Shown: positions 13,711 through 54,352, numbered from the stretch's first letter. The stretch: DNA of 64,000 bases from a virus (IMGVR_UViG_2609459792_000007); one strand, 5' to 3'. Translations and numbers: made by a program. Notes: generated by a model not told the origin, from the letters alone.

Positions 13711-13857
13711 TTAACAGCCATTGATTCTCGCCTAAAAATTCTAAGGCAGCACCTACCATTTAACCTTTACACAGCAGCCGTAGGCATTTAGGCTATATCA
13801 CATATAAGAAAACAAGTTGTTTCAGACAATAATAATAGACGCAAAGGGAACTCTCCA

Positions 13858-14526
13858 ATGACCAAGATCTTTGTGGTTGGCGGCACAAAGGGCGGGCCTG
13901 GCAAATCCACCGTTGCCCAGCAAATTGCCGTTTGCCTGAAAGTCAAAAAGAAGAAGAAGGTTTATATCACTGATATAGATATTCAGCGCACGACAACAAG
14001 CTGGTGTGAAGACCGTCGACAGAACGAAGACCTTGAGCTGATTCCTTTTGCATACGTTCAGGATGACATCATTAAGCACCTAAAATCGCTTCAGGGTAGA
14101 GCTGAGTTTGTAGTGGTAGATGCTGGTGGCTTTGACTCCGAAATTCAGCGACAAGCGATGCTGATGGCCGACGTTATCATTATCCCGCTTCGTCCTAAGC
14201 GTCGTGATTTGAAATCTCTGCGTGACATCGATCCTATTATCGACAATGTTCGTAATGTAAACGATAAAGTGAAGGTCCGCGCGGTCATGAACCAGTGCCC
14301 GGCTTTGCCATCACAAGTGTCTCGCATTCTGGCGGCTAAAGAGATTGTCGAGACGTTTGGCATCGAGTCTGCGCCAGTCAATCTATATAACCGCAACGTC
14401 TACGATGATGCGGAAGAGTCAGGTCGTTCTATCTTTGAAATGACCGGTAGCGAGCGCGACAAAAAGGCGGAAGCCGAGTTTGAAGAATTTGTAGATTATC
14501 TGTTGAGTCTGGAGGAAGAAGAATAA
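13858..14526 (+). CDS. parA: ParA-family partition ATPase (small, type Ib-like)
   Basis: 222 aa; deviant Walker A VVGGTKGGPGKST at the N-terminus, no N-terminal HTH extension; followed by a small basic protein gene. Confidence 0.8.
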   Translation: MTKIFVVGGTKGGPGKSTVAQQIAVCLKVKKKKKVYITDIDIQRTTTSWCEDRRQNEDLELIPFAYVQDDIIKHLKSLQGRAEFVVVDAGGFDSEIQRQAMLMADVIIIPLRPKRRDLKSLRDIDPIIDNVRNVNDKVKVRAVMNQCPALPSQVSRILAAKEIVETFGIESAPVNLYNRNVYDDAEESGRSIFEMTGSERDKKAEAEFEEFVDYLLSLEEEE

Positions 14527-16728: not shown

Positions 16729-16771
16729 CTAATACTAGAAAACAATTTGTTTAAAAAACAAAGGAAAGCAC

Positions 16772-23681: not shown

Positions 23682-23756
23682 GATGGTGTAGCTCAGCGGT
23701 AGAGCAGTTGGCTGTTAACCAACTGGTCGGTGGTTCGAATCCACCCACCATCGCCA
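23682..23756 (+). tRNA. tRNA-Asn (GTT)
   Basis: Cloverleaf read by hand: acceptor GATGGTG/CACCATC, D-arm GCTC-AGCGGTA-GAGC, anticodon loop CTGTTAA, T-arm GGTGG-TTCGAAT-CCACC, CCA encoded. Confidence 0.85.
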
Positions 23757-23761
23757 ATTTA

Positions 23762-23848
23762 GGGGAGTTAGTCCGTAGAGGTAGCGGGGTAGACTGTAAA
23801 TCTACTGTCATGGAGACTCGGGTGGTTCGACTCCATCACTCCCCACCA
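23762..23848 (+). tRNA. tRNA-Tyr (GTA), long variable arm
   Basis: Acceptor GGGGAGT/ACTCCCC, anticodon stem-loop GTAGA-CTGTAAA-TCTAC, long variable arm, TTCGA T-loop, CCA encoded; D-arm pairing atypical. Confidence 0.7.
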
Positions 23849-23852
23849 AATT

Positions 23853-23928
23853 GCCGGTTTAGCTCAGTTGGTAGAGCGCCTGCCTTGTAAGCAGGATGTC
23901 AGCGGTTCGAGTCCGTTAACCGGCACCA
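23853..23928 (+). tRNA. tRNA-Thr (TGT)
   Basis: Acceptor GCCGGTT/AACCGGC, D-arm GCTC-AGTTGGTA-GAGC, anticodon loop CTTGTAA, T-loop TTCGAGT, CCA encoded. Confidence 0.85.
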
Positions 23929-24142
23929 ATACAACGATAAGATCATTACGGTTAATCGTCGTTCATGTGCACAATGACTGGTCGAAAGGTAGTGATCTTA
24001 CCGTTGTGGTGGATTCGCAGACTGATGCGATAGCTTTCTTGGATGTTAGGGAAATGCGGCCGCAAATCTTCCCTTTCGCGAGCGGTGATCGTCCGTAGTC
24101 CTAATTGGCTGCACCGTATGCCGGAGATTCAGTACCGGCCAC

Positions 24143-24229
24143 CACAACGGCCGGAGAGTAGGGAGCATGGTGCTCAAGCGGTCTTGAAAACCGTCCCATT
24201 GCGCAAGCGATGATGGTTCGATTCCATTA
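24143..24229 (+). tRNA. tRNA-Ser (TGA), class II
   Basis: Acceptor GGAGAGT/ACTCTCC, anticodon stem-loop GCGGT-CTTGAAA-ACCGT, long variable arm, T-loop TTCGATT, CCA encoded; D-arm atypical. Confidence 0.65.
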
Positions 24230-24396
24230 CTCTCCGCCAGACACAGCGTTGAGCGGTTTGGCCTTTTAATCAACTCGATTAAGACTCCGCTAACATAAAC
24301 CAGACCGCTCAACGCTGTGATAGACAATTACGGCAGACGTTCTTAACCATAGCTTGCTAACATCCTAGCAACACTTTTTTTCAGCGCAAAATTCAA

Positions 24397-27212: not shown

Positions 27213-27310
27213 CCCCTCTTCTCCCTGCGCGAATGGCTTAGTTCCCTGTTCGCGCAGTGCTACATTAAACACACTAGTAAATAATTTGTTTTCATAACAA
27301 AGGATTAGCC

Positions 27311-37424: not shown

Positions 37425-38498
37425 ATGGCAAAAGGAAAATCCGCACTGGCACTTGCTCTGAAAAAGAAAATCGGTAGCAACGACGAAATTCAGAAAGTAA
37501 CTCATTGGATTGACACAGGCTTTCCTCCGTTAAACAAAGCTATTTCCGGTCGTTACGATGGCGGTTTCCCATGTGGTCGTATCGTAGAAGTATTCGGGCC
37601 GCCAAGCGCGGGGAAAACCTTTTTGGCAACAGCAGCAATGATCTCCGCTCAGAAACAAGATGGTCTGGCGGTATTCCTCGATCATGAGAACAGTTTTGAC
37701 GTTGGCCTGGCGGTAGCCAATGGCTTGAATGCAGATGAGGATGACGGTCAGTGGGTATACAAGCAGCCAGATACCTTCGAAGACTCTGTAGAGTTGATCG
37801 GCACAATACTTAAATTGGTACGTGATGAAGAGCTTATCCCTGAATCAGCACCTATCTGTATCGTGGCTGACTCACTTGCGTCTATGGTTCCGAACTCCAA
37901 AGCCGAGAAGTTCGAAAAGATGGCTGAAGGCACTGCTAAAGACAAAGATCAGCTAAACATGAACGACAATACGGCGCTTGCTCGTGCGACGAGCGCAAAC
38001 TTCCCCACTCTGGCTTTGTGGGCACGCAAATATAACGCCTGCATTATTTTCTTGAATCAGGTTCGCACAAAAATCGGTGTAATGTTTGGCGACCCTACGA
38101 CGTCGCCAGGCGGCGATTCACCGAAGTTTTACGCTTCTGTGCGCATCCGTCTCGGTGCATCGGTGATGAAGGATGGTAAAGAGAAGATCGGTCAGGACGT
38201 AGGCGCAGAGTGCATCAAAAACAAAGTTGCACCACCGTATGGCAAGTGCACCTGGAAATTCTACTTCGATCCTACTCGTGGCCTCGACGTTATCGAATCG
38301 CTCGTCGAGTACATGCTGGAAGAAGGATACCTGCCAAAGAACGCCAGCGGTCGAGTAGAAATTGGTGACAAGAAATACACCAAATCACAGATCGTCGAGA
38401 TGTATCGGGAGAAGCCACTAGCTGAAATCATTGCGGCTTTACAGGCAATCGACGACCGGAGATCAAAAGACAATCCCACCGAGTCAGTAGAAGAGTAA
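37425..38498 (+). CDS. RecA-like recombinase
   Basis: 357 aa; Walker A GPPSAGKTF; IVADSLASMVP and FLNQVRTKIGVMFGDPTTSPGG..KFYASVRIRL parallel bacterial RecA blocks as recalled. Confidence 0.8.
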   Translation: MAKGKSALALALKKKIGSNDEIQKVTHWIDTGFPPLNKAISGRYDGGFPCGRIVEVFGPPSAGKTFLATAAMISAQKQDGLAVFLDHENSFDVGLAVANGLNADEDDGQWVYKQPDTFEDSVELIGTILKLVRDEELIPESAPICIVADSLASMVPNSKAEKFEKMAEGTAKDKDQLNMNDNTALARATSANFPTLALWARKYNACIIFLNQVRTKIGVMFGDPTTSPGGDSPKFYASVRIRLGASVMKDGKEKIGQDVGAECIKNKVAPPYGKCTWKFYFDPTRGLDVIESLVEYMLEEGYLPKNASGRVEIGDKKYTKSQIVEMYREKPLAEIIAALQAIDDRRSKDNPTESVEE

Positions 38499-38513
38499 AC
38501 ACAAGGCGTCCAC

Positions 38514-38539
38514 AGGACGCCTTTTTTATCTCTTGAAAA
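38514..38539 (+). terminator. rho-independent terminator
   Basis: AGGCGTCC-ACAG-GGACGCCT followed by TTTTTT. Confidence 0.8.
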
Positions 38540-38590
38540 TATATAAGTACTTACTTATCATTTTCACATAACAACCACATAGGAAAACAC

Positions 38591-38791
38591 ATGATCAAAA
38601 TCTATCTATTGGCAGTAGCCACAGGCCTTTCAGTGGCTCTCATCTACGGATTACTGGTTCCGTCGCTGATTTCTGCAAAGAGTGATTTGGCCGTCATGCT
38701 TGGAGTTATTGTTGGTTTTGGCGCTCCAGTAATCGGTCTTATTGGTGGTCGTAAGTTTATTAACTCATTAATCAAAGCAAAGGGGAAATAA
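38591..38791 (+). CDS. small integral membrane protein
   Basis: 66 aa with two hydrophobic helices; immediately upstream of the SPFH lipoprotein gene. Confidence 0.5.
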   Translation: MIKIYLLAVATGLSVALIYGLLVPSLISAKSDLAVMLGVIVGFGAPVIGLIGGRKFINSLIKAKGK

Positions 38792-38794
38792 GTA

Positions 38795-39625
38795 ATGAAG
38801 AAAGGTTTACTTGCAGTTGCTCTGGCGGCTATTTGCACAATGGGTCTTACTGGCTGTGATCGCGTAGAGCCTGGATACGTTGGCATCAAAGTAAACAAAT
38901 TAGGTGAAGACAAAGGGATTGGTGAAGTGGTTGGCGTTGGTCGCCAATGGACAGGTCTTAACACCGAACTTTACGTATTCCCGACCTTCAAACAAATGAA
39001 GACCTACGACGAGCCGTTCACATTCCAGATGAGTGACGGTACTGCTATTGGTCACAAAATTGGCGTTGCGTATCTGGTTAATCGTGACAAGGTAACGACG
39101 GTGTTCCAGACCTATCGCAAAGGCGTAGACGATATCACCGAATCAGATCTGCGTCAGAAAATTGCCGACTCTCTAAACCGTTTGGCCAGCCGTATGACCA
39201 CTGACTCATTTATCGACGGTGGTAAGGCACAATTGTTGGACAACGCACTGAAAGATATTCAGAAAGAGATGTCTCCGGTTGGTATTGAGGTACTGAGCCT
39301 GTCATGGGTTGGAAAGCCTGATTACCCAAAAACCGTCATTGAATCTATCAACGCCAAAGTAACGGCTAACCAGCGTACTCTGCAACGTCAGCAGGAAGTC
39401 GAACAGCGTAAAGCTGAGGCGAATATGCTGCGTGAACAGGCTAATGGTGAAGCTGATGCTATCCGTGCTCGTGCGCAAGCAGAAGCAGACGCCATTCGTC
39501 TGCGCGGTGAAGCTCTGCGTCAAAACCCGAACGTTATGGAACTGGAAGCCATCAATAAATGGAATGGCCAGTTACCGCAGTACATGACTCAAGGGGCTAA
39601 CACTCCTTTCATTACAGTGAAATAA
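38795..39625 (+). CDS. SPFH/band-7 domain lipoprotein
   Basis: 276 aa; signal peptide with lipobox L-T-G-C; central band-7-like region and C-terminal Ala/Glu/Arg-rich coiled coil. Confidence 0.6.
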   Translation: MKKGLLAVALAAICTMGLTGCDRVEPGYVGIKVNKLGEDKGIGEVVGVGRQWTGLNTELYVFPTFKQMKTYDEPFTFQMSDGTAIGHKIGVAYLVNRDKVTTVFQTYRKGVDDITESDLRQKIADSLNRLASRMTTDSFIDGGKAQLLDNALKDIQKEMSPVGIEVLSLSWVGKPDYPKTVIESINAKVTANQRTLQRQQEVEQRKAEANMLREQANGEADAIRARAQAEADAIRLRGEALRQNPNVMELEAINKWNGQLPQYMTQGANTPFITVK

Positions 39626-39643
39626 CTCTCTTTAAGAAGATCA

Positions 39644-39669
39644 GGCGTCCAGTTGGACGCCGTTTTATT
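39644..39669 (+). terminator. rho-independent terminator
   Basis: GGCGTCC-AGTT-GGACGCC followed by GTTTTATT. Confidence 0.8.
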
Positions 39670-39720
39670 CTCGTTATTATCACATACAAGAAAACAATTT
39701 GTTAAAAGGTAAAGTTAATT

Positions 39721-40545
39721 ATGCCCAACCACATTACAAACGAAATCCGAGTCATAGGTGGTACAAATAAACAACGCTTAGATTTCATACGTGCCATAAC
39801 TAACAAAAAAGGTCTAATTGACTTTAATACCATTTGCAGACGTCCGAAAAGTATAGAAATGGAAGAAAACAATCATATCAGGCGCATGGCCTCTGCAATG
39901 GCGGGCGAAACAGTTTACGACTACATGTTCGGTGAATTAAAGACTCCAGAACAGGTCGAATTAGCTATGCGTGAATCTGGAATGACACGCAAGGAAATTC
40001 GCAAAATCAAAGAGCAGGCTCTTATGCGGCTTGAGAATTATCGTCGCTATGGCTATTACTCATGGTTTGACTGGTCGCGAGCTAATTGGGGAACAAAATG
40101 GAATGCCTACAACATCGAAATGCCCGTAAAACGTATCCCTACACGTATTAAGTACGGCCATAATTTCCGCCATACACACATTCGAGCATATGCAAAACGA
40201 ATCTATAAAAAACGTCTTGCAAGACATGCCGCAACTGGTGGTGAGTTGGTGATTCGCTTTGAAACAGCCTGGTCTATGCCAAAACCAATTTATCAAGCGA
40301 TGGCTAGAAAGTTCCCGCACCTTGAGTTTGTAATACGTTATGCAGACGAAGACTTCGGCAATAACTGCGGATTCATTTTACTTCGCAACGGCAAATGGGA
40401 ATATGACTACATTGCACCGGCGAATAACGAACAATCGTCAGAAGAAAAAATCAAATGGCGCAAGTTCGCCTTTGAGTTATGTTGTCCTGGTATCACTCCA
40501 CAAGAATACGGTCTAAATGAAGAATACGAATACGCCGGATATTAA
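39721..40545 (+). CDS. hypothetical protein, possibly DUF1281/Api92-like
   Basis: 274 aa; N-terminal HITNEIRV and SRANWGTKWNAY resemble a motif pair I associate with DUF1281-type plasmid/phage proteins; recollection only. Confidence 0.4.
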   Translation: MPNHITNEIRVIGGTNKQRLDFIRAITNKKGLIDFNTICRRPKSIEMEENNHIRRMASAMAGETVYDYMFGELKTPEQVELAMRESGMTRKEIRKIKEQALMRLENYRRYGYYSWFDWSRANWGTKWNAYNIEMPVKRIPTRIKYGHNFRHTHIRAYAKRIYKKRLARHAATGGELVIRFETAWSMPKPIYQAMARKFPHLEFVIRYADEDFGNNCGFILLRNGKWEYDYIAPANNEQSSEEKIKWRKFAFELCCPGITPQEYGLNEEYEYAGY

Positions 40546-40578
40546 AGAATTGTCATTTGGCTTTACGCTCGAAGCATA

Positions 40579-41331
40579 GTGGTTAAGAAGATGAAAAGAA
40601 AAATTGAAGAACCAAAAACGACACTTAATAAACATGGGGAAAAAATTCAAACACACCCAGCGTTCGGTCTTGTGAAAACAAGCCGTGTTAGCACGACTGG
40701 CATTCGTCTATTTGATTCAGAACTGGAACATAGAGACTATATTGAAATAGGCGTTTACGAGGCTGAACTGTCCTTAGACAATGAACGAACCCGGCCACAA
40801 AGGAGTAGCAATAGACGGCCTTTAGTTGAAATTAGACTTAGCCAGGCACAATGGGCTGCTATGGTTAGCAGTTTTGGTGTGGGCGAAGGTGTGCCATGCA
40901 CTATTTCATATAAAACCATTGGCGACTCAATTAGAGTTCATGATATTGCCGAGCAAAAAAGTATTCGGCAAAAATTCAACGATCAAATAAAGGCAGCTAC
41001 GAATAGTGAGATTGATCGACTTAATCAGCAAGTTTCAGAGCTAGGTGAGCTTGTGAAAAAAGGAAGAGCTGGAAAACGTGACCTTGAAGAACTATATAGA
41101 AAACTTGCATCTGCTGTAGCTAACCTTCCTGAAAATCTGTGCTTTGCTACCGAATTAATGCAGGAGCAAATGGATGAAATTGTCTCATCTGGAAAGGCGG
41201 AGATTGAGGCGTATGTTGCAGGCACTGTTATGCGTAAAGGGTTAGCAGCATTAGGCACAGAATCATGCATTAACGATGATCCTACTGTCTCTATCACCAA
41301 AATGGAAAGCGGTAAAGAATTACTGCCATAA
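40579..41331 (+). CDS. hypothetical protein
   Basis: 250-aa ORF; no motif recognised. Confidence 0.5.
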   Translation: MVKKMKRKIEEPKTTLNKHGEKIQTHPAFGLVKTSRVSTTGIRLFDSELEHRDYIEIGVYEAELSLDNERTRPQRSSNRRPLVEIRLSQAQWAAMVSSFGVGEGVPCTISYKTIGDSIRVHDIAEQKSIRQKFNDQIKAATNSEIDRLNQQVSELGELVKKGRAGKRDLEELYRKLASAVANLPENLCFATELMQEQMDEIVSSGKAEIEAYVAGTVMRKGLAALGTESCINDDPTVSITKMESGKELLP

Positions 41332-41351
41332 ATGCATCTGAGGTACTGACA

Positions 41352-41741
41352 ATGCTTTTAATTCAACCTGGTTTCGGTTTAAAGATAAAAAAAGGGCATA
41401 TGTTTGGTGAGCGAGATTCCAAACGAAAAATTCTGTCTATTCGATTACCATTTATCACCATTCATTGGTTAAACAGAGAGTCAACCGATTATTGGTATAA
41501 ATGCGCAAGAGCAGCATTTAACGACCCTGACTGGTTTGTAGAAAATCACCACGCGGTTCGTCAGGCAAAAAGAAAGGCTAATACGACATATATGAAGGCA
41601 TATCAGGATGCCTGGGAAGAACATCGTGGCCGATACCAAAAAAACATTGAAAAACTTGAATCAGAAAATATGGACCTAAGAAGAAAACTCGGTGAAGCAC
41701 GTCGAGACATCGAAGCATATAAACGTCTTGTATCGGAGTGA
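41352..41741 (+). CDS. hypothetical protein
   Basis: 129-aa ORF; basic, C-terminal coiled coil. Confidence 0.45.
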   Translation: MLLIQPGFGLKIKKGHMFGERDSKRKILSIRLPFITIHWLNRESTDYWYKCARAAFNDPDWFVENHHAVRQAKRKANTTYMKAYQDAWEEHRGRYQKNIEKLESENMDLRRKLGEARRDIEAYKRLVSE

Positions 41742-41904
41742 ATATGACTTTACGTTGTTTTTTCAAAGGGCATAGTTTTTCACTATACAGAAACAGAAAT
41801 AATAATGGGGCATTCTACATATGTAGTAAATGTGGGAGGACAAAATATCTTCCAGATGTCAAATTTGAAGGTCCTTAAATGTTTGCATTAAATGGGCAAT
41901 ACAG

Positions 41905-42321
41905 ATGATCACAACAGACTTTTCTAAATTAAGTGATTTTGAAATTAACAGACGAGTATGTGAGGCTTTAGATATGGAGGAGTATTTCTTCATACCTGAT
42001 GACGAAGCAAATTTCGATTCGGAGATCCCCACTGACGAAAGAGGTCCTGTTTGGCAGACGTCAAAAAGGGATATTAATGGCTTCCGTGCTTCAAACGGAA
42101 ATTGCTTCAATCCTTGCAACAACCCGGCGGACGCAAAGCCTATTATCGTAGAGAACAGAATTGGCATTATTCCTGCGCCAGAAAATGGATTATGGAAGGC
42201 TGCGCATAGAAAGATTGGTAACGATAATACTCCATACCATATGACTCAAAATGTAAATCCACTCCGCGCCGCCATGATTGTCTTTCTGATGATGAAAGAA
42301 AGTGAGAGTTGTACCGATTAA
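41905..42321 (+). CDS. hypothetical protein
   Basis: 138-aa ORF; no motif recognised. Confidence 0.45.
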   Translation: MITTDFSKLSDFEINRRVCEALDMEEYFFIPDDEANFDSEIPTDERGPVWQTSKRDINGFRASNGNCFNPCNNPADAKPIIVENRIGIIPAPENGLWKAAHRKIGNDNTPYHMTQNVNPLRAAMIVFLMMKESESCTD

Positions 42322-42620
42322 TGAATATATACGATTTTTTTAAAAAACCTAACACATGTGTCAGAAAAGGGTATAGACCGTCAGTCATCGATTGCTGGTC
42401 GCTATCAGCAAATAATCTCAACAATGTATTCAAAATGCATTGGGAGTTTCTTTGTGAAGCGCGCGGCGTTCTCGACATGACAGTCAGAGAAGCAATTATC
42501 TGGATTCTTTGGTTTCCGGTAAGAACATTTATGACTCTGACGTACCCATTTATCTTCTGGATTTGGGGAACCGTCCTTTATTTCATATTAAAAGGAGAAG
42601 TAAAACATGGCAGCAATTAA
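42309..42620 (+). CDS. hypothetical membrane protein
   Basis: 103-aa ORF with Trp/Phe-rich hydrophobic segments. Confidence 0.4.
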   Translation: MYRLMNIYDFFKKPNTCVRKGYRPSVIDCWSLSANNLNNVFKMHWEFLCEARGVLDMTVREAIIWILWFPVRTFMTLTYPFIFWIWGTVLYFILKGEVKHGSN

Positions 42621-43032
42621 GAAACTCTACGATGCCGCAAACGCGGCTCTGGATGTTATTGATGATGAAGTATCAAAAGGCTTTCCTGAACCTGATTGGG
42701 CGCATCAACTACGAAATGCTATCGCCGAAATGAATCCACCAGATCCGACCACCGACGAGACAGACTGGCAGCGATTTATCCGTATGTACGCTCAGGAAAT
42801 AGGTCCAACGCCAACGGCAGAGCAAGCAATGCTGCTGAAATACTTCAAAGAGGCGGGAGAGGATTTACCAATTGATGACTCAGCATATTGGTTCCACTGC
42901 GCATGGCGTAAGTATGACGTGATATTCACACAAGGCATGGGGAGCAAAGATATGGTTGTGTGGCATCTACTCCATATAGACACAGCCGTTGACAGAGTCA
43001 TTGAACAGTTTTTCCCTAAACAAGAAGATTGA
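42607..43032 (+). CDS. hypothetical protein
   Basis: 141-aa ORF; no motif recognised. Confidence 0.45.
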   Translation: MAAIKKLYDAANAALDVIDDEVSKGFPEPDWAHQLRNAIAEMNPPDPTTDETDWQRFIRMYAQEIGPTPTAEQAMLLKYFKEAGEDLPIDDSAYWFHCAWRKYDVIFTQGMGSKDMVVWHLLHIDTAVDRVIEQFFPKQED

Positions 43033-43087
43033 TCGCCTATTCATAACTAACAAAATAAGTAAACACTAACCACAAAAGGAAAAACAC

Positions 43088-43363
43088 ATGAGAGTTTTAG
43101 TTCGAATCGTTACCAGCACTGTCTATGACGTGTTTCCGCTTTTTATGGTCAAAGCCGATGGTCTTAACGACGAAGAAACTGACGCGCTGATCCAGCGTAT
43201 TCTCGTTGAATATACAGGTCATGACGCTGATTCAGTGATGGTTGATGATGATGGTGTTTGTTGGCATAACGGCAACTGTTGGTACGTAGAAGAGACTCAA
43301 CAAATCAGTGATGAAGATGCCGCACATCTTGAGCGTATTTTAAGCATCAGCACTTTTGAGTGA
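43088..43363 (+). CDS. hypothetical protein
   Basis: 91-aa ORF; conserved start context AAAAGGAAAAACACATG. Confidence 0.5.
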   Translation: MRVLVRIVTSTVYDVFPLFMVKADGLNDEETDALIQRILVEYTGHDADSVMVDDDGVCWHNGNCWYVEETQQISDEDAAHLERILSISTFE

Positions 43364-43402
43364 GTTTACAGTAAAATTTATATAAGTTAGTATCTACCTA
43401 TC

Positions 43403-43582
43403 ATGAAGATTTTTATTGAATACTTGTTACTCATCGTGTCAATAGCTTTTGTCATCGACTGCATTTTCACTGGTGTCATTCGTAAAGTCTTTTCCCCGGT
43501 GAACGACGTAGTCATAAACGCTTTGGCTATCGTGCTCGTATTTAATTCAGCATTTGATGTAATCAAAGAGGTGGCAGCATGA
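43403..43582 (+). CDS. small membrane protein (59 aa, below ORF-track cutoff)
   Basis: Read from sequence: MKIFIEYLLLIVSIAFVIDCIFTGV..; two hydrophobic helices; stop overlaps the next start (ATGA). Confidence 0.35.
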   Translation: MKIFIEYLLLIVSIAFVIDCIFTGVIRKVFSPVNDVVINALAIVLVFNSAFDVIKEVAA

Positions 43583-43914
43583 AGGCCATCCCATTTGCGC
43601 TGTTGTTCCTTTCTTCGATCGTTGTGGCCGACACCACTGTTTATCAGTGTGAAATGTCTGTAGCCGACGTTAAGAATGGCGCTCTTACCGACGTCATAAA
43701 AGCACCATATGGAGCGATGGTCGTAGACAGCGGCGACCAGTTCTATGTTGTGCGTGACGATCGAGTGTTGTCATCCCCATATCTCACAAATCGTAATGGC
43801 AAATTAACCGGCGTCGGAGAAGACCACTTCGTATACAACAAATACAAGGGCTTCTATGGCGTTCACGCTTCTCAGCAAAGCTACCTTTTCGATGACTGCA
43901 AGGAGGTTGGATAA
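43579..43914 (+). CDS. hypothetical secreted protein
   Basis: 111 aa; N-terminal signal-peptide-like MKAIPFALLFLSSIVVA. Confidence 0.45.
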   Translation: MKAIPFALLFLSSIVVADTTVYQCEMSVADVKNGALTDVIKAPYGAMVVDSGDQFYVVRDDRVLSSPYLTNRNGKLTGVGEDHFVYNKYKGFYGVHASQQSYLFDDCKEVG

Positions 43915-44126
43915 TGGCATTAACACTGGCAGGTCTGGAAATCGAGAAAACAAGCGGCTACTGGCGTGCTAAGGGTTTCAAGCAGCCTGGCATTCTTGAG
44001 CGTCTGGAACGTGAAGATGGGTATATCGTCCACCAGCGGCGTGAATGGCGTATGTACGATCCAGAAACAGGAAAACTGACTACAAAAGCCGGAACACTTT
44101 GGGGTCTGTTGAAGAAAATACACTAA
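43914..44126 (+). CDS. hypothetical protein
   Basis: 70-aa ORF; no motif recognised. Confidence 0.4.
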   Translation: MALTLAGLEIEKTSGYWRAKGFKQPGILERLEREDGYIVHQRREWRMYDPETGKLTTKAGTLWGLLKKIH

Positions 44127-44133
44127 TAGCACC

Positions 44134-44616
44134 AACCACTGCGGTGAGTAGTCTACTCACCGCATTCGTATCCAGCTCATTATCCACTGTAGTCAGTAAC
44201 AAAACCTTCCTACATATCTGCTAACCACTGTAGCGAGTAGACAGCCTTTCATTCGCATCAAACAACCACTATGGTGAGTATTGGAGTGAGATGTCCAGCG
44301 GGTATCCACTATGGTGAGTAAGCCTTTGCTGTTTTCAGTGGATATCCACTCGCCACAGTGGATACGCTCAAAGATGAGGGCGACAACAACCACTATAGAC
44401 AGTAAATTTTCCAAGATACCCAGTGACCACTAACCTCGCAGCCCTTGTTTCATCAGTGTTAGTGATCACTAACATTTAATTCAGTATTTGCATTCTACTG
44501 CCTACAGTGGTTATCAACAGATAACGATACTCACTATAGTGGATAGCGAATTACAGATATAAGTAAGGCTCACTACAGTGGATAGTGAGTCTTACTACTA
44601 ACTACAGTGGTTGGGC
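44134..44616. repeat. iteron array downstream of repA (incA-like)
   Basis: About 10 copies of a 9-bp core CCACTRTAG in both orientations, e.g. AACCACTGCGGTGAGTA, ATCCACTGTAGTCAGTA, CACTATAGTGGATAG, AACTACAGTGGTTGG. Confidence 0.8.
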
Positions 44617-45671
44617 TATTTGCGAGTCTTTGCCTTGCGCAACTCTTCGAGAAGCGCCAGTTCTTCTTTACTCAACATGACCATTTTGCCTTCTTTTTCG
44701 TCAGGCACAACGTCGATAATGTCATCTTGATTCTCATCTGGGAGGCTATATTCCGTCTCATCATTATCGATTTTTGTTGATATTTGTGCCTGGCGTAACT
44801 TTGGCCGCCTATAGTGGATGACGAAGTAGACCGAGTTTCCGCGCTTAACTTCCGTGTAATCGAGATATCCTATCTCTCGCAGCTGTTCCATAGCCTTTCT
44901 TACCGTCGCATTCTGAGTAATAGTGCGACTTGTCAGATTAAGTCTGGCGCGTAAACGGGCTAGTGATATTGGTGCCGGATCAGGCGGCAAACTTTCAATA
45001 AAAGTATAAAGCGCCTGAGCGGATTCTTTTCTTGAGAGTTCGTTTATAGCCCGGAGTTGCAGAAGAACCTTTTTGTCGAACTGGTAGAGTTCGAAAATCT
45101 TGGGATCTGCTTTCAGTTCGACCGTATCGTGCTTGACACTATATTTTGCCGTTTGCACAAGATGCGTTACGTAAAACTCATCAGAGCCTTTGCTACGGAA
45201 CGAGATGGTATTTGTGGCAATACGGCTTAGCGAACTGTCCAGGCGTTTGCGTAACTTCGCTGATGACCTGGCGGTCGGAATGCCACACAGCCTTACAAAC
45301 TCAACGAACGGCAACGTGACAGTATCGCCAACGACCTTGTGTTTGGCAAACGCGTGGATTATTCCCACCCACGTTTTAAAGTCGTTATCCATATCAAGCC
45401 GAAGGCCAGAGATCCTTATGTCTTCGTACCCTTCGGCTTTTGCCAGAGACAGCTGTTTGAGTTCAGCAGAGGCATCCATAGAGACCATTTGCCCCTTTCT
45501 TCCTCTGGATGTCGATTTCAGCGTCGGAACGAAGAGGCCCAGACGCATCAAAGCAACAGGCTGAACAGTGTTATTAGTGTTAGGAACCAACGTAACAACT
45601 TCGCCTGTCTTTTTATCTGTTTCTGAAAATGCTTCAACGATCGCTATGTTTTTATTGCCGTTTTCGCTCAT
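44616..45671 (-). CDS. repA: plasmid replication initiator RepA (P1 RepA-like)
   Basis: 351 aa; [49 protein letters not shown] and [12 protein letters not shown] parallel P1 RepA as recalled; flanked on both sides by iterons. Confidence 0.85.
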
Positions 45672-45715
45672 TCCAAATGTCTCTTGTTATTCGACGGCTT
45701 TGGTGGCCTTTGCTG

Positions 45716-46330
45716 ATTACAGTGGATAGTAGCACTCATCACAGCGGTTATCCTACCGTCTATAGTGGTTTTTCTCCTCTCTATAGTGGTTGCTTTGCTC
45801 CCTATAGTGGATTGTTCGCTCTCTATAGTGGATATCGATCATGTCTGAAGGCAGATGGCACAACGGTTTGAGGTGGGCGGGGATCTTATTGGGTCTTTAT
45901 GGGTCTCTTTGGTTCTCTTTGTGATCTGAATTACTGGATCGGGCCTGTGGATAAAAATCAGAGAATTTCAAGAACAGGTAACTCTACTCTTCTGTGGATA
46001 TTTAAGGACATAAGAATCATGACTAAGAGTAGAGTTTAAAATATATCTATGTATATCAGTATGTTAATGAAGAATTAAGTCATTAAGTTATCCATAAAAG
46101 ACAATGTGCTCTACTCTCTACAGTGGATATATACAGCTCTCCAGAGTGGTTGTTTTACTCTTCATAGCGGTTATTCAGCTCTCTACAGAGGTTTCTTTGC
46201 TCTCCATAGTGGATGGCAACACCCTTTCAGACCAGTAACCGCAACGGCTAGAGGCGATCGGGGATCTCTTTGGATCTTCTATTTGATCTTACTTGGGATC
46301 TCTTATTTGGATCTATCCAGTGGATAACTG
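45716..46330. other. iteron-type replication origin upstream of repA (iterons, DnaA boxes, GATC cluster, AT-rich tract)
   Basis: About 11 iterons (CTCTATAGTGGTT-type) at roughly 20-bp spacing in two groups (45716-45836, 46119-46215); DnaA box TGTGGATAA at 45946-45954 and near-consensus at 45994-46002 and 46319-46327; six GATC within 46257-46313; AT-rich 46020-46100. Confidence 0.8.
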
Positions 46331-54246: not shown

Positions 54247-54352
54247 CATATGGTGGGGGATATCCCCACCTTCTCTTTGATTTGTAAGCCTTGTTTAAAC
54301 ATATAAGATAACAACTTGTTTAAACGCACCAAAAAAGAAAAAGGAAAAACAC

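What the first reader, a model, noticed from the sequence alone, without database searches (positions are those of the whole stretch)
39721..44126. Block of nine uncharacterised genes next to the incA-like iteron array
Between the SPFH lipoprotein gene and the replicon lies a co-oriented run of small to mid-size ORFs with no recognisable enzymatic motifs: one possible DUF1281/Api92-like protein (HITN..NWGTKW), a 44-aa zinc-ribbon-like ORF at 41744-41878 (Cys and His pairs) missed by the ORF track, a Trp-rich membrane protein, a secreted protein and several others. If this window hides an undescribed system (anti-defence, host takeover or superinfection control), this block is the most plausible location, but nothing here identifies a function.
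Basis: inference. Interest (0 to 1): 0.65.

Follow-up and report, generated by a model that had tools for sequence, protein, structure and literature searches.

The report
Accessory gene run in a phage-plasmid
The flagged block is a real run of eleven small genes of unknown function in an SSU5-type phage-plasmid of E. coli: a conserved five-gene backbone next to the replicon, plus a rare 2.9-kb insert of lambdoid-phage-type early genes, and not a single new system.

Summary
The window is an SSU5-like phage-plasmid (about 98% identical to roughly 110-kb E. coli and E. albertii plasmids). Interval 39721-44126 holds eleven co-oriented, tightly packed genes, not nine. All have family-level homologues or show purifying selection, including the 44-aa Cys/His ORF and a 99-aa aromatic-rich ORF that RefSeq annotations of relatives omit.

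The block has two layers.
- **Backbone (o7-o11):** a DUF7238 protein, an acidic 91-aa protein, a 59-aa membrane protein, a 111-aa protein with a signal peptide, and a P1 Cra homologue. It is in 203 of 5,426 complete E. coli genomes, always on plasmids, and syntenic in Salmonella and Klebsiella relatives.
- **Cargo (o1-o6):** present in only 8-15 of those genomes. It sits exactly between a conserved promoter/operator-like palindrome and the o7 ribosome-binding site. Relatives of its genes lie in lambdoid prophage pL (N-proximal) and nin regions.

No gene matches a known defence model. The one anti-defence protein I could test (the putative T5 Rad homologue) did not match, and no solved structure with a known function matched either. 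Components occur independently, so this is not one system.

The most likely reading is lytic-programme accessory genes, with o9-o11 possibly expressed from their own promoter. Functions remain untested. Interest is low to moderate.

The parts
39644..39661 (+). Intrinsic-terminator-like hairpin (GGCGTCC-AGTT-GGACGCC followed by a T-run) that ends the upstream tm66-SPFH unit
   Evidence: A hairpin of the same kind lies at 38503-38523, after recA.
39686..39709 (+). Conserved promoter/operator-like motif ACAAGAAAACAATTTGTTAAAAGG (core palindrome AAACAAnTTGTTT), 12 nt upstream of the o1 start
   Evidence: There are five such sites in the window, each 29-48 nt upstream of a + strand gene start: 7 matches against 0.46 expected. 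The same motif sits after the SPFH terminator in Cyrano, L028, L029 and Klebsiella L093. Cyrano has about 18 sites genome-wide, none inside the structural module.
39721..40545 (+). o1, 274 aa, DUF1281/Api92-superfamily protein (cargo)
40591..41331 (+). o2, 246 aa, N-terminal beta domain plus a long helical hairpin (cargo; phrog_6452)
   Evidence: 64 homologues, mostly on ~100-110-kb phage-plasmid contigs. Conserved THPAFG and LSxAQWAAxVSSxGxGxGVPCT. AF2 pLDDT 81. Full-length structural matches only to uncharacterised phage proteins, including Microbacterium phage Cinna. PDB hits match the helical hairpin only.
41352..41741 (+). o3, 129 aa, lambdoid nin-region gene (cargo; phrog_1511)
   Evidence: 82% nucleotide identity to the gene between ninE and ninF of HK630, Stx phages and hundreds of E. 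coli prophages.
41744..41878 (+). o4, 44 aa, C-H-C-C zinc-ribbon-like mini-protein (cargo; unannotated in relatives)
   Evidence: A homologue lies in a lambdoid prophage nin region between DnaB and NinB. Present in 12 related plasmids plus one Proteus chromosome-sized record. No tblastn hit in the phage collection.
41905..42321 (+). o5, 138 aa, NinX (DUF2591) family (cargo)
   Evidence: Pfam PF10765 1.4e-16. Segments are 89-96% identical to NinX genes of different chromosomal prophages, so the gene is mosaic.
42321..42620 (+). o6, 99 aa, aromatic-rich protein with a hydrophobic C-terminus (cargo; phrog_2638; unannotated in relatives)
   Evidence: phrog_2638 1.8e-17. 29-37% identity to hypothetical proteins of Kagunavirus and Dickeya jumbo phages. 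Its start overlaps the o5 stop (TAATG).
42607..43032 (+). o7, 141 aa, acidic DUF7238 protein (semi-conserved backbone; first gene of the unit where the slot is empty)
   Evidence: Pfam DUF7238 6e-38. Homologues are almost only on ~100-110-kb phage-plasmid contigs. Absent from Klebsiella L093 and partial in L044.
43088..43363 (+). o8, 91 aa, very acidic (pI 4.15) backbone protein (phrog_2209)
   Evidence: Orthologues in SSU5 (76%) and Klebsiella (43%). dN/dS about 0.07-0.10.
43365..43393 (+). Conserved sigma-70-like promoter TTTACA-17-TAGTAT directly upstream of o9; the leader is short and has no Shine-Dalgarno
   Evidence: The two hexamers stay conserved while the spacer varies across E. coli and Salmonella lineages, even where the flanking genes have diverged.
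43403..43582 (+). o9, 59 aa, small membrane protein (phrog_2535)
   Evidence: Two hydrophobic segments, best Kyte-Doolittle mean 2.68. Conserved 64-100% across E. coli and Salmonella relatives.
43579..43914 (+). o10, 111 aa, protein with an N-terminal signal peptide and two Cys (phrog_2077)
   Evidence: Overlaps the o9 stop (ATGA). Orthologues in SSU5 (74%) and Klebsiella (27%).
43914..44126 (+). o11, 70 aa, basic protein homologous to phage P1 Cra (Cre-associated protein; phrog_804)
   Evidence: 43.5% identity to P1 Cra over 62 aa. phrog_804 6.5e-34. Found in 1,426 plasmid records; the rows listed are SSU5-like or P1-sized.
44131..44613 (.). incA-like iteron array downstream of repA, starting 5 bp after the o11 stop; copies in both orientations
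   Evidence: families D2-D6. No terminator-like site is predicted between o11 and the array.

Best explanation
**What it is.** The interval is one stretch of the early (replication, recombination, nucleotide-metabolism) arm of an SSU5-type phage-plasmid. It has two layers.

- **Backbone, o7-o11:** a DUF7238 protein, an acidic 91-aa protein, a 59-aa membrane protein, a 111-aa protein with a signal peptide, and a Cra homologue. It belongs to the element's conserved core next to the replicon.
- **Cargo, o1-o6:** 2.9 kb inserted precisely between the unit's promoter/operator-like palindrome and the ribosome-binding site of o7. The incoming genes are therefore read from the resident signal. The cargo is a mosaic of gene types whose relatives sit in the pL (N-proximal) and nin regions of lambdoid prophages, and part of it was exchanged with them recently.

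**How it most likely works (inferred, not shown).**
- The palindrome also heads the parA, helicase, CobT-like and RNR-beta units and others. It marks units that are switched on together in the lytic programme. By analogy with the dispersed C1 operators of P1, these units would be held off in the plasmid state.
- o1-o8 would therefore be made early after infection or induction. They would act as separate small accessory proteins (host takeover or counter-defence), not as one machine.
- o9-o11 have their own conserved sigma-70-like promoter with a short leader that lacks a Shine-Dalgarno. They may be expressed from the resident plasmid, which suits an envelope or exclusion role for o9/o10 and a regulatory role for Cra.
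For: **Identity of the element**
- 97-98% identity to ~110-kb E. coli and E. albertii plasmids and to phages CMS-2020a, Cyrano and PhiR41_1.
- Synteny with SSU5 and a Klebsiella phage-plasmid.

**Two layers**
- The SPFH-to-o7 gap is 95 bp in about 23 IMG/VR loci, 2.18 kb (o1-o3) in 3 loci and 2.99 kb in the window type.
- In 5,426 complete E. coli genomes, the core is in 203, o1-o2 in 15, and the full o3-o6 stretch in 8.

**Exact insertion point**
- The same leader precedes o1 in the window and o7 in empty-site relatives. TTAAAAGG occurs at both junctions.

**All genes are real**
- Family hits and pN far below pS.

**Lambdoid connection**
- o3 is 82% identical at nucleotide level to the gene between ninE and ninF.
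- NinX segments are 89-96% identical to prophage copies.
- An o4 homologue lies in a nin region.
- An o1 homologue lies downstream of N and upstream of cIII.

**Shared regulatory motif**
-.

**Own promoter for o9**
-.

**Not one system**
- o1 occurs without o2. o2 occurs without o1.
Against: - No expression data exist. Neither the palindrome nor the o9 promoter is experimentally defined, and the simple sigma-70 scan found no more sites than expected by chance in the region overall.
- No gene has a demonstrated function, and no anti-defence profile library was available, so 'takeover or counter-defence' rests only on where relatives are located.
- The backbone genes are conserved and lie next to incA. 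That could equally point to a plasmid-maintenance role.
- o1 and o2 stay adjacent at 66% and 61% identity in Salmonella elements, so a two-gene functional unit is not excluded.
Confidence: 0.55

Rival explanations
1. The whole block is a single multi-gene system (anti-defence, defence or superinfection control) whose parts work together.
For: Eleven co-oriented genes with overlapping or closely spaced boundaries and no internal terminator. All are uncharacterised.
Against: The components have independent distributions. The core is in 203 genomes, o1-o2 in 15 and o3-o6 in 8. o1 stands alone in lambdoid prophages. o2 stands alone in other phages and in Klebsiella elements. o3, o4 and o5 are separate nin-region genes. 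There are no PADLOC hits.
Confidence: 0.04
2. o9, o10 and possibly o11 form a module expressed from the resident plasmid. It would alter the cell envelope to exclude superinfecting relatives or other phages (superinfection exclusion or lysogenic conversion).
For: - A small membrane protein plus a protein with a signal peptide and two Cys.
- Their own conserved sigma-70-like promoter with a short leader that lacks a Shine-Dalgarno.
- In L028 the o8-o11 products are 52-83% identical while the flanking SPFH, RepA and ASCH proteins are 98.6-99.7% identical. That is allelic replacement, as expected for specificity or conflict genes.
Against: No similarity to any known exclusion protein. Promoter activity is untested. 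Strong purifying selection (dN/dS about 0.07-0.11) does not by itself indicate an arms race.
Confidence: 0.2
3. The backbone genes, especially the Cra homologue o11, serve plasmid maintenance (copy-number, incompatibility or multimer-resolution control) rather than phage-host conflict.
For: - o11 ends 5 bp before the incA-like iterons, with no predicted terminator between them.
- Cra homologues were found only in SSU5-like and P1-like phages in the phage collection (33 records).
- They are also in 1,426 plasmids; the rows listed are mostly ~80-140 kb, the size of phage-plasmids.
- The position next to the replicon holds even when the replicon type differs: RepA is 100% or about 50% identical on near-identical backbones.
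Against: In P1, cra lies next to cre-lox, not next to the replicon (annotations). No DNA-binding domain was detected. The function of P1 Cra itself is unknown.
Confidence: 0.15
4. Some or all of the small ORFs (o4, o6, o9) are chance ORFs and the region is partly non-coding.
For: RefSeq annotations of close relatives do not call them.
Against: o4 has homologues with conserved Cys and His. o6 matches phrog_2638 and proteins of unrelated phages. o9 matches phrog_2535 at 1.4e-31 and has pN 0.15 against pS 0.85 versus SSU5.
Confidence: 0.02

Closest known systems
nin region and pL (N-proximal) accessory genes of lambdoid phages (lambda, P22, HK630, Stx phages)
   Same: - The cargo includes direct relatives of these genes: o3 matches the gene between ninE and ninF (82% nucleotide identity), o5 is NinX, an o4 homologue lies in a nin region, and an o1 homologue lies downstream of N.
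- Like those regions, the cargo is a run of small, dispensable-looking, mosaic genes read from an early promoter.
   Different: - Here the genes sit in a siphovirus-type phage-plasmid next to its replicon.
- They are not between the replication genes and Q.
- None of the nin genes with a known function (NinB/Orf, NinG/Rap, NinI phosphatase) is present.
Variable accessory ('plasmid-like') gene repertoires of phage-plasmids (Pfeifer et al. 2021, PMC7969092; SSU5 supergroup survey, bioRxiv 10.1101/2025.09.12.675607)
   Same: A conserved phage backbone carries a variable cargo region. The element belongs to the SSU5 group described in those papers.
   Different: - Those surveys report resistance, defence and anti-defence genes detected by existing models.
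- In the passages I searched, the 2025 survey never uses the words 'SPFH', 'hotspot' or 'variable region'.
- For Escherichia and Shigella SSU5 elements it names only Rad among known anti-defence genes. Rad is not in this block.
Api92 / DUF1281 (PDB 2ijr, Yersinia pseudotuberculosis)
   Different: Only 14% identity. No Pfam family other than DUF1281_C was reported for o1 at E up to 0.1. o1 has a long helical insert. Api92 itself has no known function.
Phage P1 Cra (Cre-associated protein)
   Same: o11 is a homologue (43.5% identity, phrog_804). It is of similar size and basic.
   Different: It is adjacent to repA/incA rather than to cre-lox. The function of Cra is unknown, so the name carries no mechanism.
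Dispersed C1 repressor operators of phage P1 (my own knowledge of the P1 literature, not tested here)
   Same: A short conserved DNA motif recurs upstream of many separate transcription units of a plasmid prophage, including the unit that holds this block.
   Different: The sequence is unrelated (palindrome AAACAAnTTGTTT). No binding protein has been identified, and no evidence was obtained here that it is an operator rather than part of a promoter.

Membership tests
DUF1281/Api92-like (o1) | Pfam DUF1281_C (PF18406) above the gathering score | tested here: met
   58.5 bits against a cut-off of 22.8. All listed homologues carry PF18406.
DUF1281/Api92-like (o1) | Fold similarity to the solved Api92 structure (2ijr) | tested here: met
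DUF1281/Api92-like (o1) | A second, N-terminal DUF1281 Pfam domain (accession recalled from memory, not checked here) | tested here: not met
   DUF1281_C was the only Pfam family reported for o1 at E up to 0.1.
NinX / DUF2591 (o5) | Pfam Phage_P22_NinX above the gathering score | tested here: met
   61.3 bits against 22.6, covering the full profile.
DUF7238 (o7) | Pfam PF23885 above the gathering score | tested here: met
   129.8 bits against 27.
P1 Cra (o11) | Sequence homology to P1 Cra | tested here: met
   tblastn 43.5% identity over residues 8-69, E 1e-4. phrog_804 6.5e-34.
P1 Cra (o11) | Location directly upstream of cre-lox | tested here: not met
   o11 lies next to the incA-like iterons and repA. 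No cre is adjacent.
Lambdoid nin-region genes (o3, o4, o5) | Homologues located between the replication genes and Q in lambdoid phages | tested here: met
   o3: HK630 gp55, between ninE and ninF, and PA28. o4: a homologue between DnaB and NinB. o5: the NinX family.
Known anti-phage defence systems (PADLOC) | Significant match of any block protein to a defence-system model | tested here: not met
   Only two weak coiled-coil matches to LmuB (E 0.007-0.015) among the ten proteins scanned, o1-o10. o11 was not scanned against PADLOC.
Rad anti-retron protein (reported in 16-22% of Escherichia/Shigella SSU5 elements) | Homology to the T5-family TOPRIM-type Rad (189 aa) | tested here: not met
   No block ORF matches T5 20-70 kb, which includes T5.076. 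T5.076 has no significant match in the window. That T5.076 is the Rad homologue is my inference from the paper's description.
Other known anti-defence families (Ocr, Ard, Acr, Tad, Gad and others) | Match to curated anti-defence profiles | not testable with these tools
   No anti-defence HMM library was available. Indirectly, a DefenseFinder-based screen of 1,227 SSU5-group contigs reported only Rad.
Moron (autonomous promoter-gene-terminator insert) | Own sigma-70 promoter and own terminator flanking the inserted genes | tested here: not met
   The cargo has no terminator and no strong promoter of its own. It uses the resident leader. The neighbouring tm66-SPFH unit does fit this pattern.

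The most novel reading that the evidence does not exclude
o1 may belong to an undescribed enzyme family that phages deploy early against a host function, possibly together with its conserved neighbour o2.
- After Met removal the protein would start with an invariant proline, as in tautomerase-superfamily enzymes.
- The family also has an invariant ADED acidic cluster and an invariant TKWN-Y stretch.
- Relatives lie downstream of N in a lambdoid pL operon, and the gene is rare cargo in phage-plasmids.

This fits counter-defence or host takeover, but it is speculation built on conservation and gene position only.
Probability: 0.12. Interest if true: 0.7.

Novelty: new member of a known kind. Interest (0 to 1): 0.28.

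Why it matters
SSU5-type phage-plasmids are common in E. coli, Shigella sonnei, Salmonella Typhi, Klebsiella and Yersinia pestis (pMT1), yet almost nothing is known about their regulation or accessory genes.

The practical results are these.
- **A corrected gene map.** There are eleven genes. Two or three of them are missing from RefSeq annotations of relatives.
- **A defined cargo slot.** It lies immediately behind a recurrent promoter/operator-like palindrome and exchanges genes with lambdoid prophages.
- **A short list of candidates for anti-defence or exclusion screens.** These are o1 (with o2), the o9-o10 envelope pair and Cra.

None of this overturns current views. It narrows where to look.

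Tried and rejected
- **PADLOC defence models:** nothing for o1-o10.
- **NCBIfam:** only sub-threshold hits.
- **PDB sequence searches:** single sequences or profiles for o1, o2, o3, o5, o7 and o10 gave nothing meaningful.
- **Fold search of o2 against the PDB:** only generic helical-hairpin matches such as Skp, prefoldin, ESCRT-III and designed bundles. I do not read these as homology.
- **Fold search of o2 against BFVD:** only uncharacterised phage proteins.
- **AFDB Foldseek library:** not available.
- **One of o1-o3 might be the Rad anti-retron gene** reported in Shigella sonnei SSU5 elements. Rejected: Rad is a 189-aa TOPRIM protein and no block ORF matches the T5 region that contains the TOPRIM gene T5.076.
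- **o4 as NinF:** rejected. There was no Pfam hit, and o4's C-H-C-C pattern differs from what I recall of NinF.
- **A close link between o1 and conjugative-plasmid leading regions**, suggested by the UniRef name 'YubB ferredoxin-like'. tblastn found o1-like genes on only 47 plasmids, 43 of them non-mobilisable, so the link is at most remote.
- **Literature searches** for DUF1281, Api92, YubB, NinX, DUF7238 and SSU5 operators: no functional information.

Full report
**What the window is.** The interval and its flanks are 97-98% identical to ~110-kb non-mobilisable plasmids of E. coli and E. albertii and to Escherichia phages CMS-2020a, Cyrano and PhiR41_1. They are about 75% identical to Salmonella phage SSU5. 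The surrounding genes are a T4-like SSB, a 5'-3' exonuclease, RecA, SbcCD, RNR, ThyX and a P1-type RepA with iterons. They match the annotated SSU5/Cyrano map. The element is therefore an SSU5-type phage-plasmid, and the finding lies in its early replication/recombination arm, where nearly all genes read on the + strand.

**Checking the observation.** Between the SPFH lipoprotein gene (38795-39625) and the iteron array (from 44131) there are eleven + strand genes, not nine.

| Gene | Coordinates | Size | Note |
|---|---|---|---|
| o1 | 39721-40545 | 274 aa | |
| o2 | 40591-41331 | 246 aa | a GTG at 40579 is possible |
| o3 | 41352-41741 | 129 aa | |
| o4 | 41744-41878 | 44 aa | |
| o5 | 41905-42321 | 138 aa | |
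| o6 | 42321-42620 | 99 aa | from the internal ATG |
| o7 | 42607-43032 | 141 aa | |
| o8 | 43088-43363 | 91 aa | |
| o9 | 43403-43582 | 59 aa | |
| o10 | 43579-43914 | 111 aa | |
| o11 | 43914-44126 | 70 aa | |

- Gaps run from -14 to +55 nt, with several stop/start overlaps.
- Every gene has a PHROG or Pfam family, except o4, which has only weak hits there.
- o4 nevertheless has small-protein homologues of 35-67 aa at 36-51% identity. C5, H10, C27 and G31 are invariant, and C30 is kept in five of six. It also has a GGAG Shine-Dalgarno 5 nt upstream.
- o6 matches phrog_2638 (1.8e-17) and proteins of Kagunavirus and Dickeya jumbo phages.
- Against orthologues in SSU5, a Salmonella-type locus and a divergent E. 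coli locus, non-synonymous divergence is 0.04-0.24 while synonymous sites are near saturation. Where it can be computed, dN/dS is 0.03-0.11.
- RefSeq annotations of close relatives omit o4, o6 and o9.
Copies lie in both orientations from 44131 to 44613, downstream of repA, and two further clusters lie upstream of repA.

**Two layers.** I mapped the eleven proteins onto 84 related loci.
- In E. coli-type elements the distance from the SPFH stop to the o7 start is 95 bp in about 23 loci, 2.18 kb (o1-o3) in three, and 2.99 kb (o1-o6) only in the window type.
- Salmonella-type elements carry NinX alone (about 0.5 kb) or o1+o2+NinX (2.1 kb).
- One lineage carries o2 alone.
- A Klebsiella phage-plasmid has a different set of small genes, including an o2 homologue, in the same slot. 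These are followed by o8-, o10- and o11-like genes and a convergent rep gene.
- Among 5,426 complete E. coli genomes, the o7-o11 segment is in 203, always on plasmids. o1-o2 is in 15, and the complete o3-o6 stretch is in 8.

So o7-o11 (most strictly o8-o11) is backbone and o1-o6 is rare cargo.

**The insertion point.**
- After the SPFH stop there is a terminator-like hairpin (39644-39661), then the sequence ACAAGAAAACAATTTGTTAAAAGG, then the o1 start.
- In empty-site relatives the same leader runs directly into the o7 ribosome-binding site and ATG.
- In the window, o7 keeps that ribosome-binding site (AAAAGGAGAAGTAAAACATG), and TTAAAAGG occurs at both junctions.
- The cargo therefore lies between the resident upstream signal and the first resident gene.

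**The upstream signal.**
- The palindrome AAACAAnTTGTTT, usually preceded by A(A/T)AGA, occurs at five sites in the window: 13810, 16740, 27279, 39692 and 54309.
- Each site lies 29-48 nt before the start of a + strand gene. These are an ORF at 13858 (the parA counterpart in Cyrano), the helicase, a CobT-like gene, o1 and RNR-beta.
- That is seven strand-matches against 0.46 expected.
- The motif is at the equivalent position after the SPFH terminator in Cyrano, L028, a Salmonella-type locus and the Klebsiella element. The Klebsiella element has a second copy before its o8 homologue.
- In the complete Cyrano genome there are about 18 sites. None lies inside the 29-kb structural/lysis module, although two lie just before the terminase gene.
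- With 6-bp arms and a 1-nt spacer it cannot act as an RNA hairpin, so it is a DNA-level signal.
- I infer that it marks co-regulated transcription units, either as part of a phage-specific promoter or as the operator of a global repressor in the manner of the dispersed C1 operators of P1. I found no description of it in the searchable literature.

**A second, internal signal.**
- The 39-nt o8-o9 spacer holds TTTACA-17-TAGTAT.
- Both hexamers are conserved across E. coli and Salmonella lineages while the spacer varies, even where the flanking genes have diverged.
- The -10 element ends 9 nt before the o9 ATG, and there is no Shine-Dalgarno.
- o9-o10-o11 may therefore be transcribed separately, on an mRNA with a very short or absent leader.

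**What the proteins are.**
- **o2** has conserved THPAFG and LSxAQWAAxVSS motifs. It has a beta-rich N-terminal domain and a long helical hairpin. Its full-length structural relatives are uncharacterised phage proteins, including one from an actinophage. PDB matches are to the hairpin only.
- **o3** is 82% identical at nucleotide level to the gene between ninE and ninF in HK630, Stx phages and hundreds of E. coli prophages.
- **o4** has a homologue in a nin region.
- **o5** is NinX. It has segments 89-96% identical to different chromosomal prophages, so it is mosaic.
- **o7** is DUF7238, a family almost confined to these phage-plasmids.
- **o8** is strongly acidic (pI 4.15). **o9** is a small membrane protein. 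**o10** has a signal peptide and two Cys.
- **o11** is a homologue of P1 Cra (43.5% identity). In the phage collection this family was found only in SSU5-like and P1-like phages. It is also in 1,426 plasmid records. Many of the listed SSU5-type records place it about 1.6 kb from the record start, presumably next to repA as in the window. The function of Cra is unknown.

**What it is not.**
- There are no PADLOC defence hits for o1-o10 and no informative NCBIfam or PDB sequence hits.
- A recent survey reports the Rad anti-retron gene in 16-22% of Escherichia and Shigella SSU5 elements. Shigella sonnei elements also carry o1-o3, so I tested whether one of these is Rad.
- Rad is a 189-aa TOPRIM protein. 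No block ORF matches the T5 region that holds the TOPRIM gene T5.076, and T5.076 has no significant match in the window.
- The parts of the block occur independently of one another. That argues against a single multi-gene system.

**Most likely mechanism.**
- Shown: the gene set, the two-layer structure, the insertion point, the lambdoid relationships and the recurrence of the motif.
- Inferred: o1-o8 are read from the palindrome-associated signal together with replication and nucleotide-metabolism genes in the lytic programme. They act as separate accessory proteins, the class to which pL-proximal and nin-region genes belong.
- Inferred: o9-o11 may be expressed from the resident plasmid, which would suit an envelope or exclusion role for o9/o10.
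- In one E. coli-type locus (L028) the o8-o11 products are only 52-83% identical while SPFH, RepA and ASCH are 98.6-99.7% identical. This backbone segment is therefore itself exchanged between lineages.
- A maintenance role for Cra, next to incA, is a live alternative.

**Verdict.** This is an ordinary, if poorly understood, accessory region of a common phage-plasmid family. It yields a few concrete leads: the cargo slot, the regulatory palindrome, the o1 family and the Cra family.

Noticed in passing
window 13810-13822, 16740-16752, 27279-27291, 39692-39704, 54309-54321: A recurrent palindrome AAACAAnTTGTTT, usually preceded by A(A/T)AGA, lies 29-48 nt upstream of five + strand gene starts. 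The complete Cyrano genome has about 18 sites, none inside the structural module. It is a candidate global operator or promoter element of SSU5-type phage-plasmids. I found no description of it in the searchable literature.
   Followed up: partly
window 38503-39661: The 66-aa membrane protein gene and the SPFH lipoprotein gene look like an autonomous moron. A sigma-70-like promoter (TTGAAA-17-TATCAT, 38533-38561, 10 of 12 matches) precedes them. Two terminator hairpins with the same GGCGTCC/GGACGCC stem flank them (38503-38523 and 39644-39661).
   Followed up: partly
window 23682-24239: The tRNA cluster is Asn, Tyr, Thr, Ser, whereas phage Cyrano annotates only Asn, Thr, Ser at the equivalent place. 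The extra tRNA-Tyr is notable because a T5-family tRNA-Tyr has been reported to cancel retron Ec78 (PtuAB) defence (bioRxiv 10.1101/2023.03.15.532788).
   Followed up: partly
window 37425-38498; L002 559-2898; L003 1-1899: The window's RecA gene is intein-free (357 aa). In Cyrano and in plasmid NZ_CP027369 the gene is 2,340 bp, and RefSeq annotates it as a LAGLIDADG homing endonuclease, which indicates an intein insertion.
   Followed up: no
window 44616-45671 (repA) and loci L003, L005-L027: Near-identical backbones (SPFH and ASCH proteins 97-100% identical) carry one of two replication initiators at the same site. One is the window's RepA (100%, IncFIB typing). The other is about 50% identical and annotated as RepB family (rep_cluster_488). 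The replicon is therefore an exchangeable cassette next to the block.
   Followed up: partly
L028 10408-11443 (IMGVR_UViG_2724679538_000004): In an element whose SPFH, RepA and ASCH proteins are 98.6-99.7% identical to the window, the o8, o9, o10 and o11 products are only 52%, 71%, 76% and 83% identical. The backbone segment has been locally replaced by a different allele set.
   Followed up: partly
window 44131-44613, 45709-45838, 46110-46219: There are three iteron clusters with a core like CT(A/C)TAGTGGATA. The first lies downstream of repA and has copies in both orientations. The other two are arrays at 21-bp spacing upstream of repA, separated by about 360 bp, and each is followed by a similar 37-nt repeat (45861 and 46242).
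   Followed up: no
L002 4119-4129 (phage Cyrano 58625-58635): In Cyrano the o7 start codon reads ATA instead of the ATG (or GTG in L028) found in the other 27 related loci examined. The database entry instead starts the gene at an ATT two codons downstream.
   Followed up: yes
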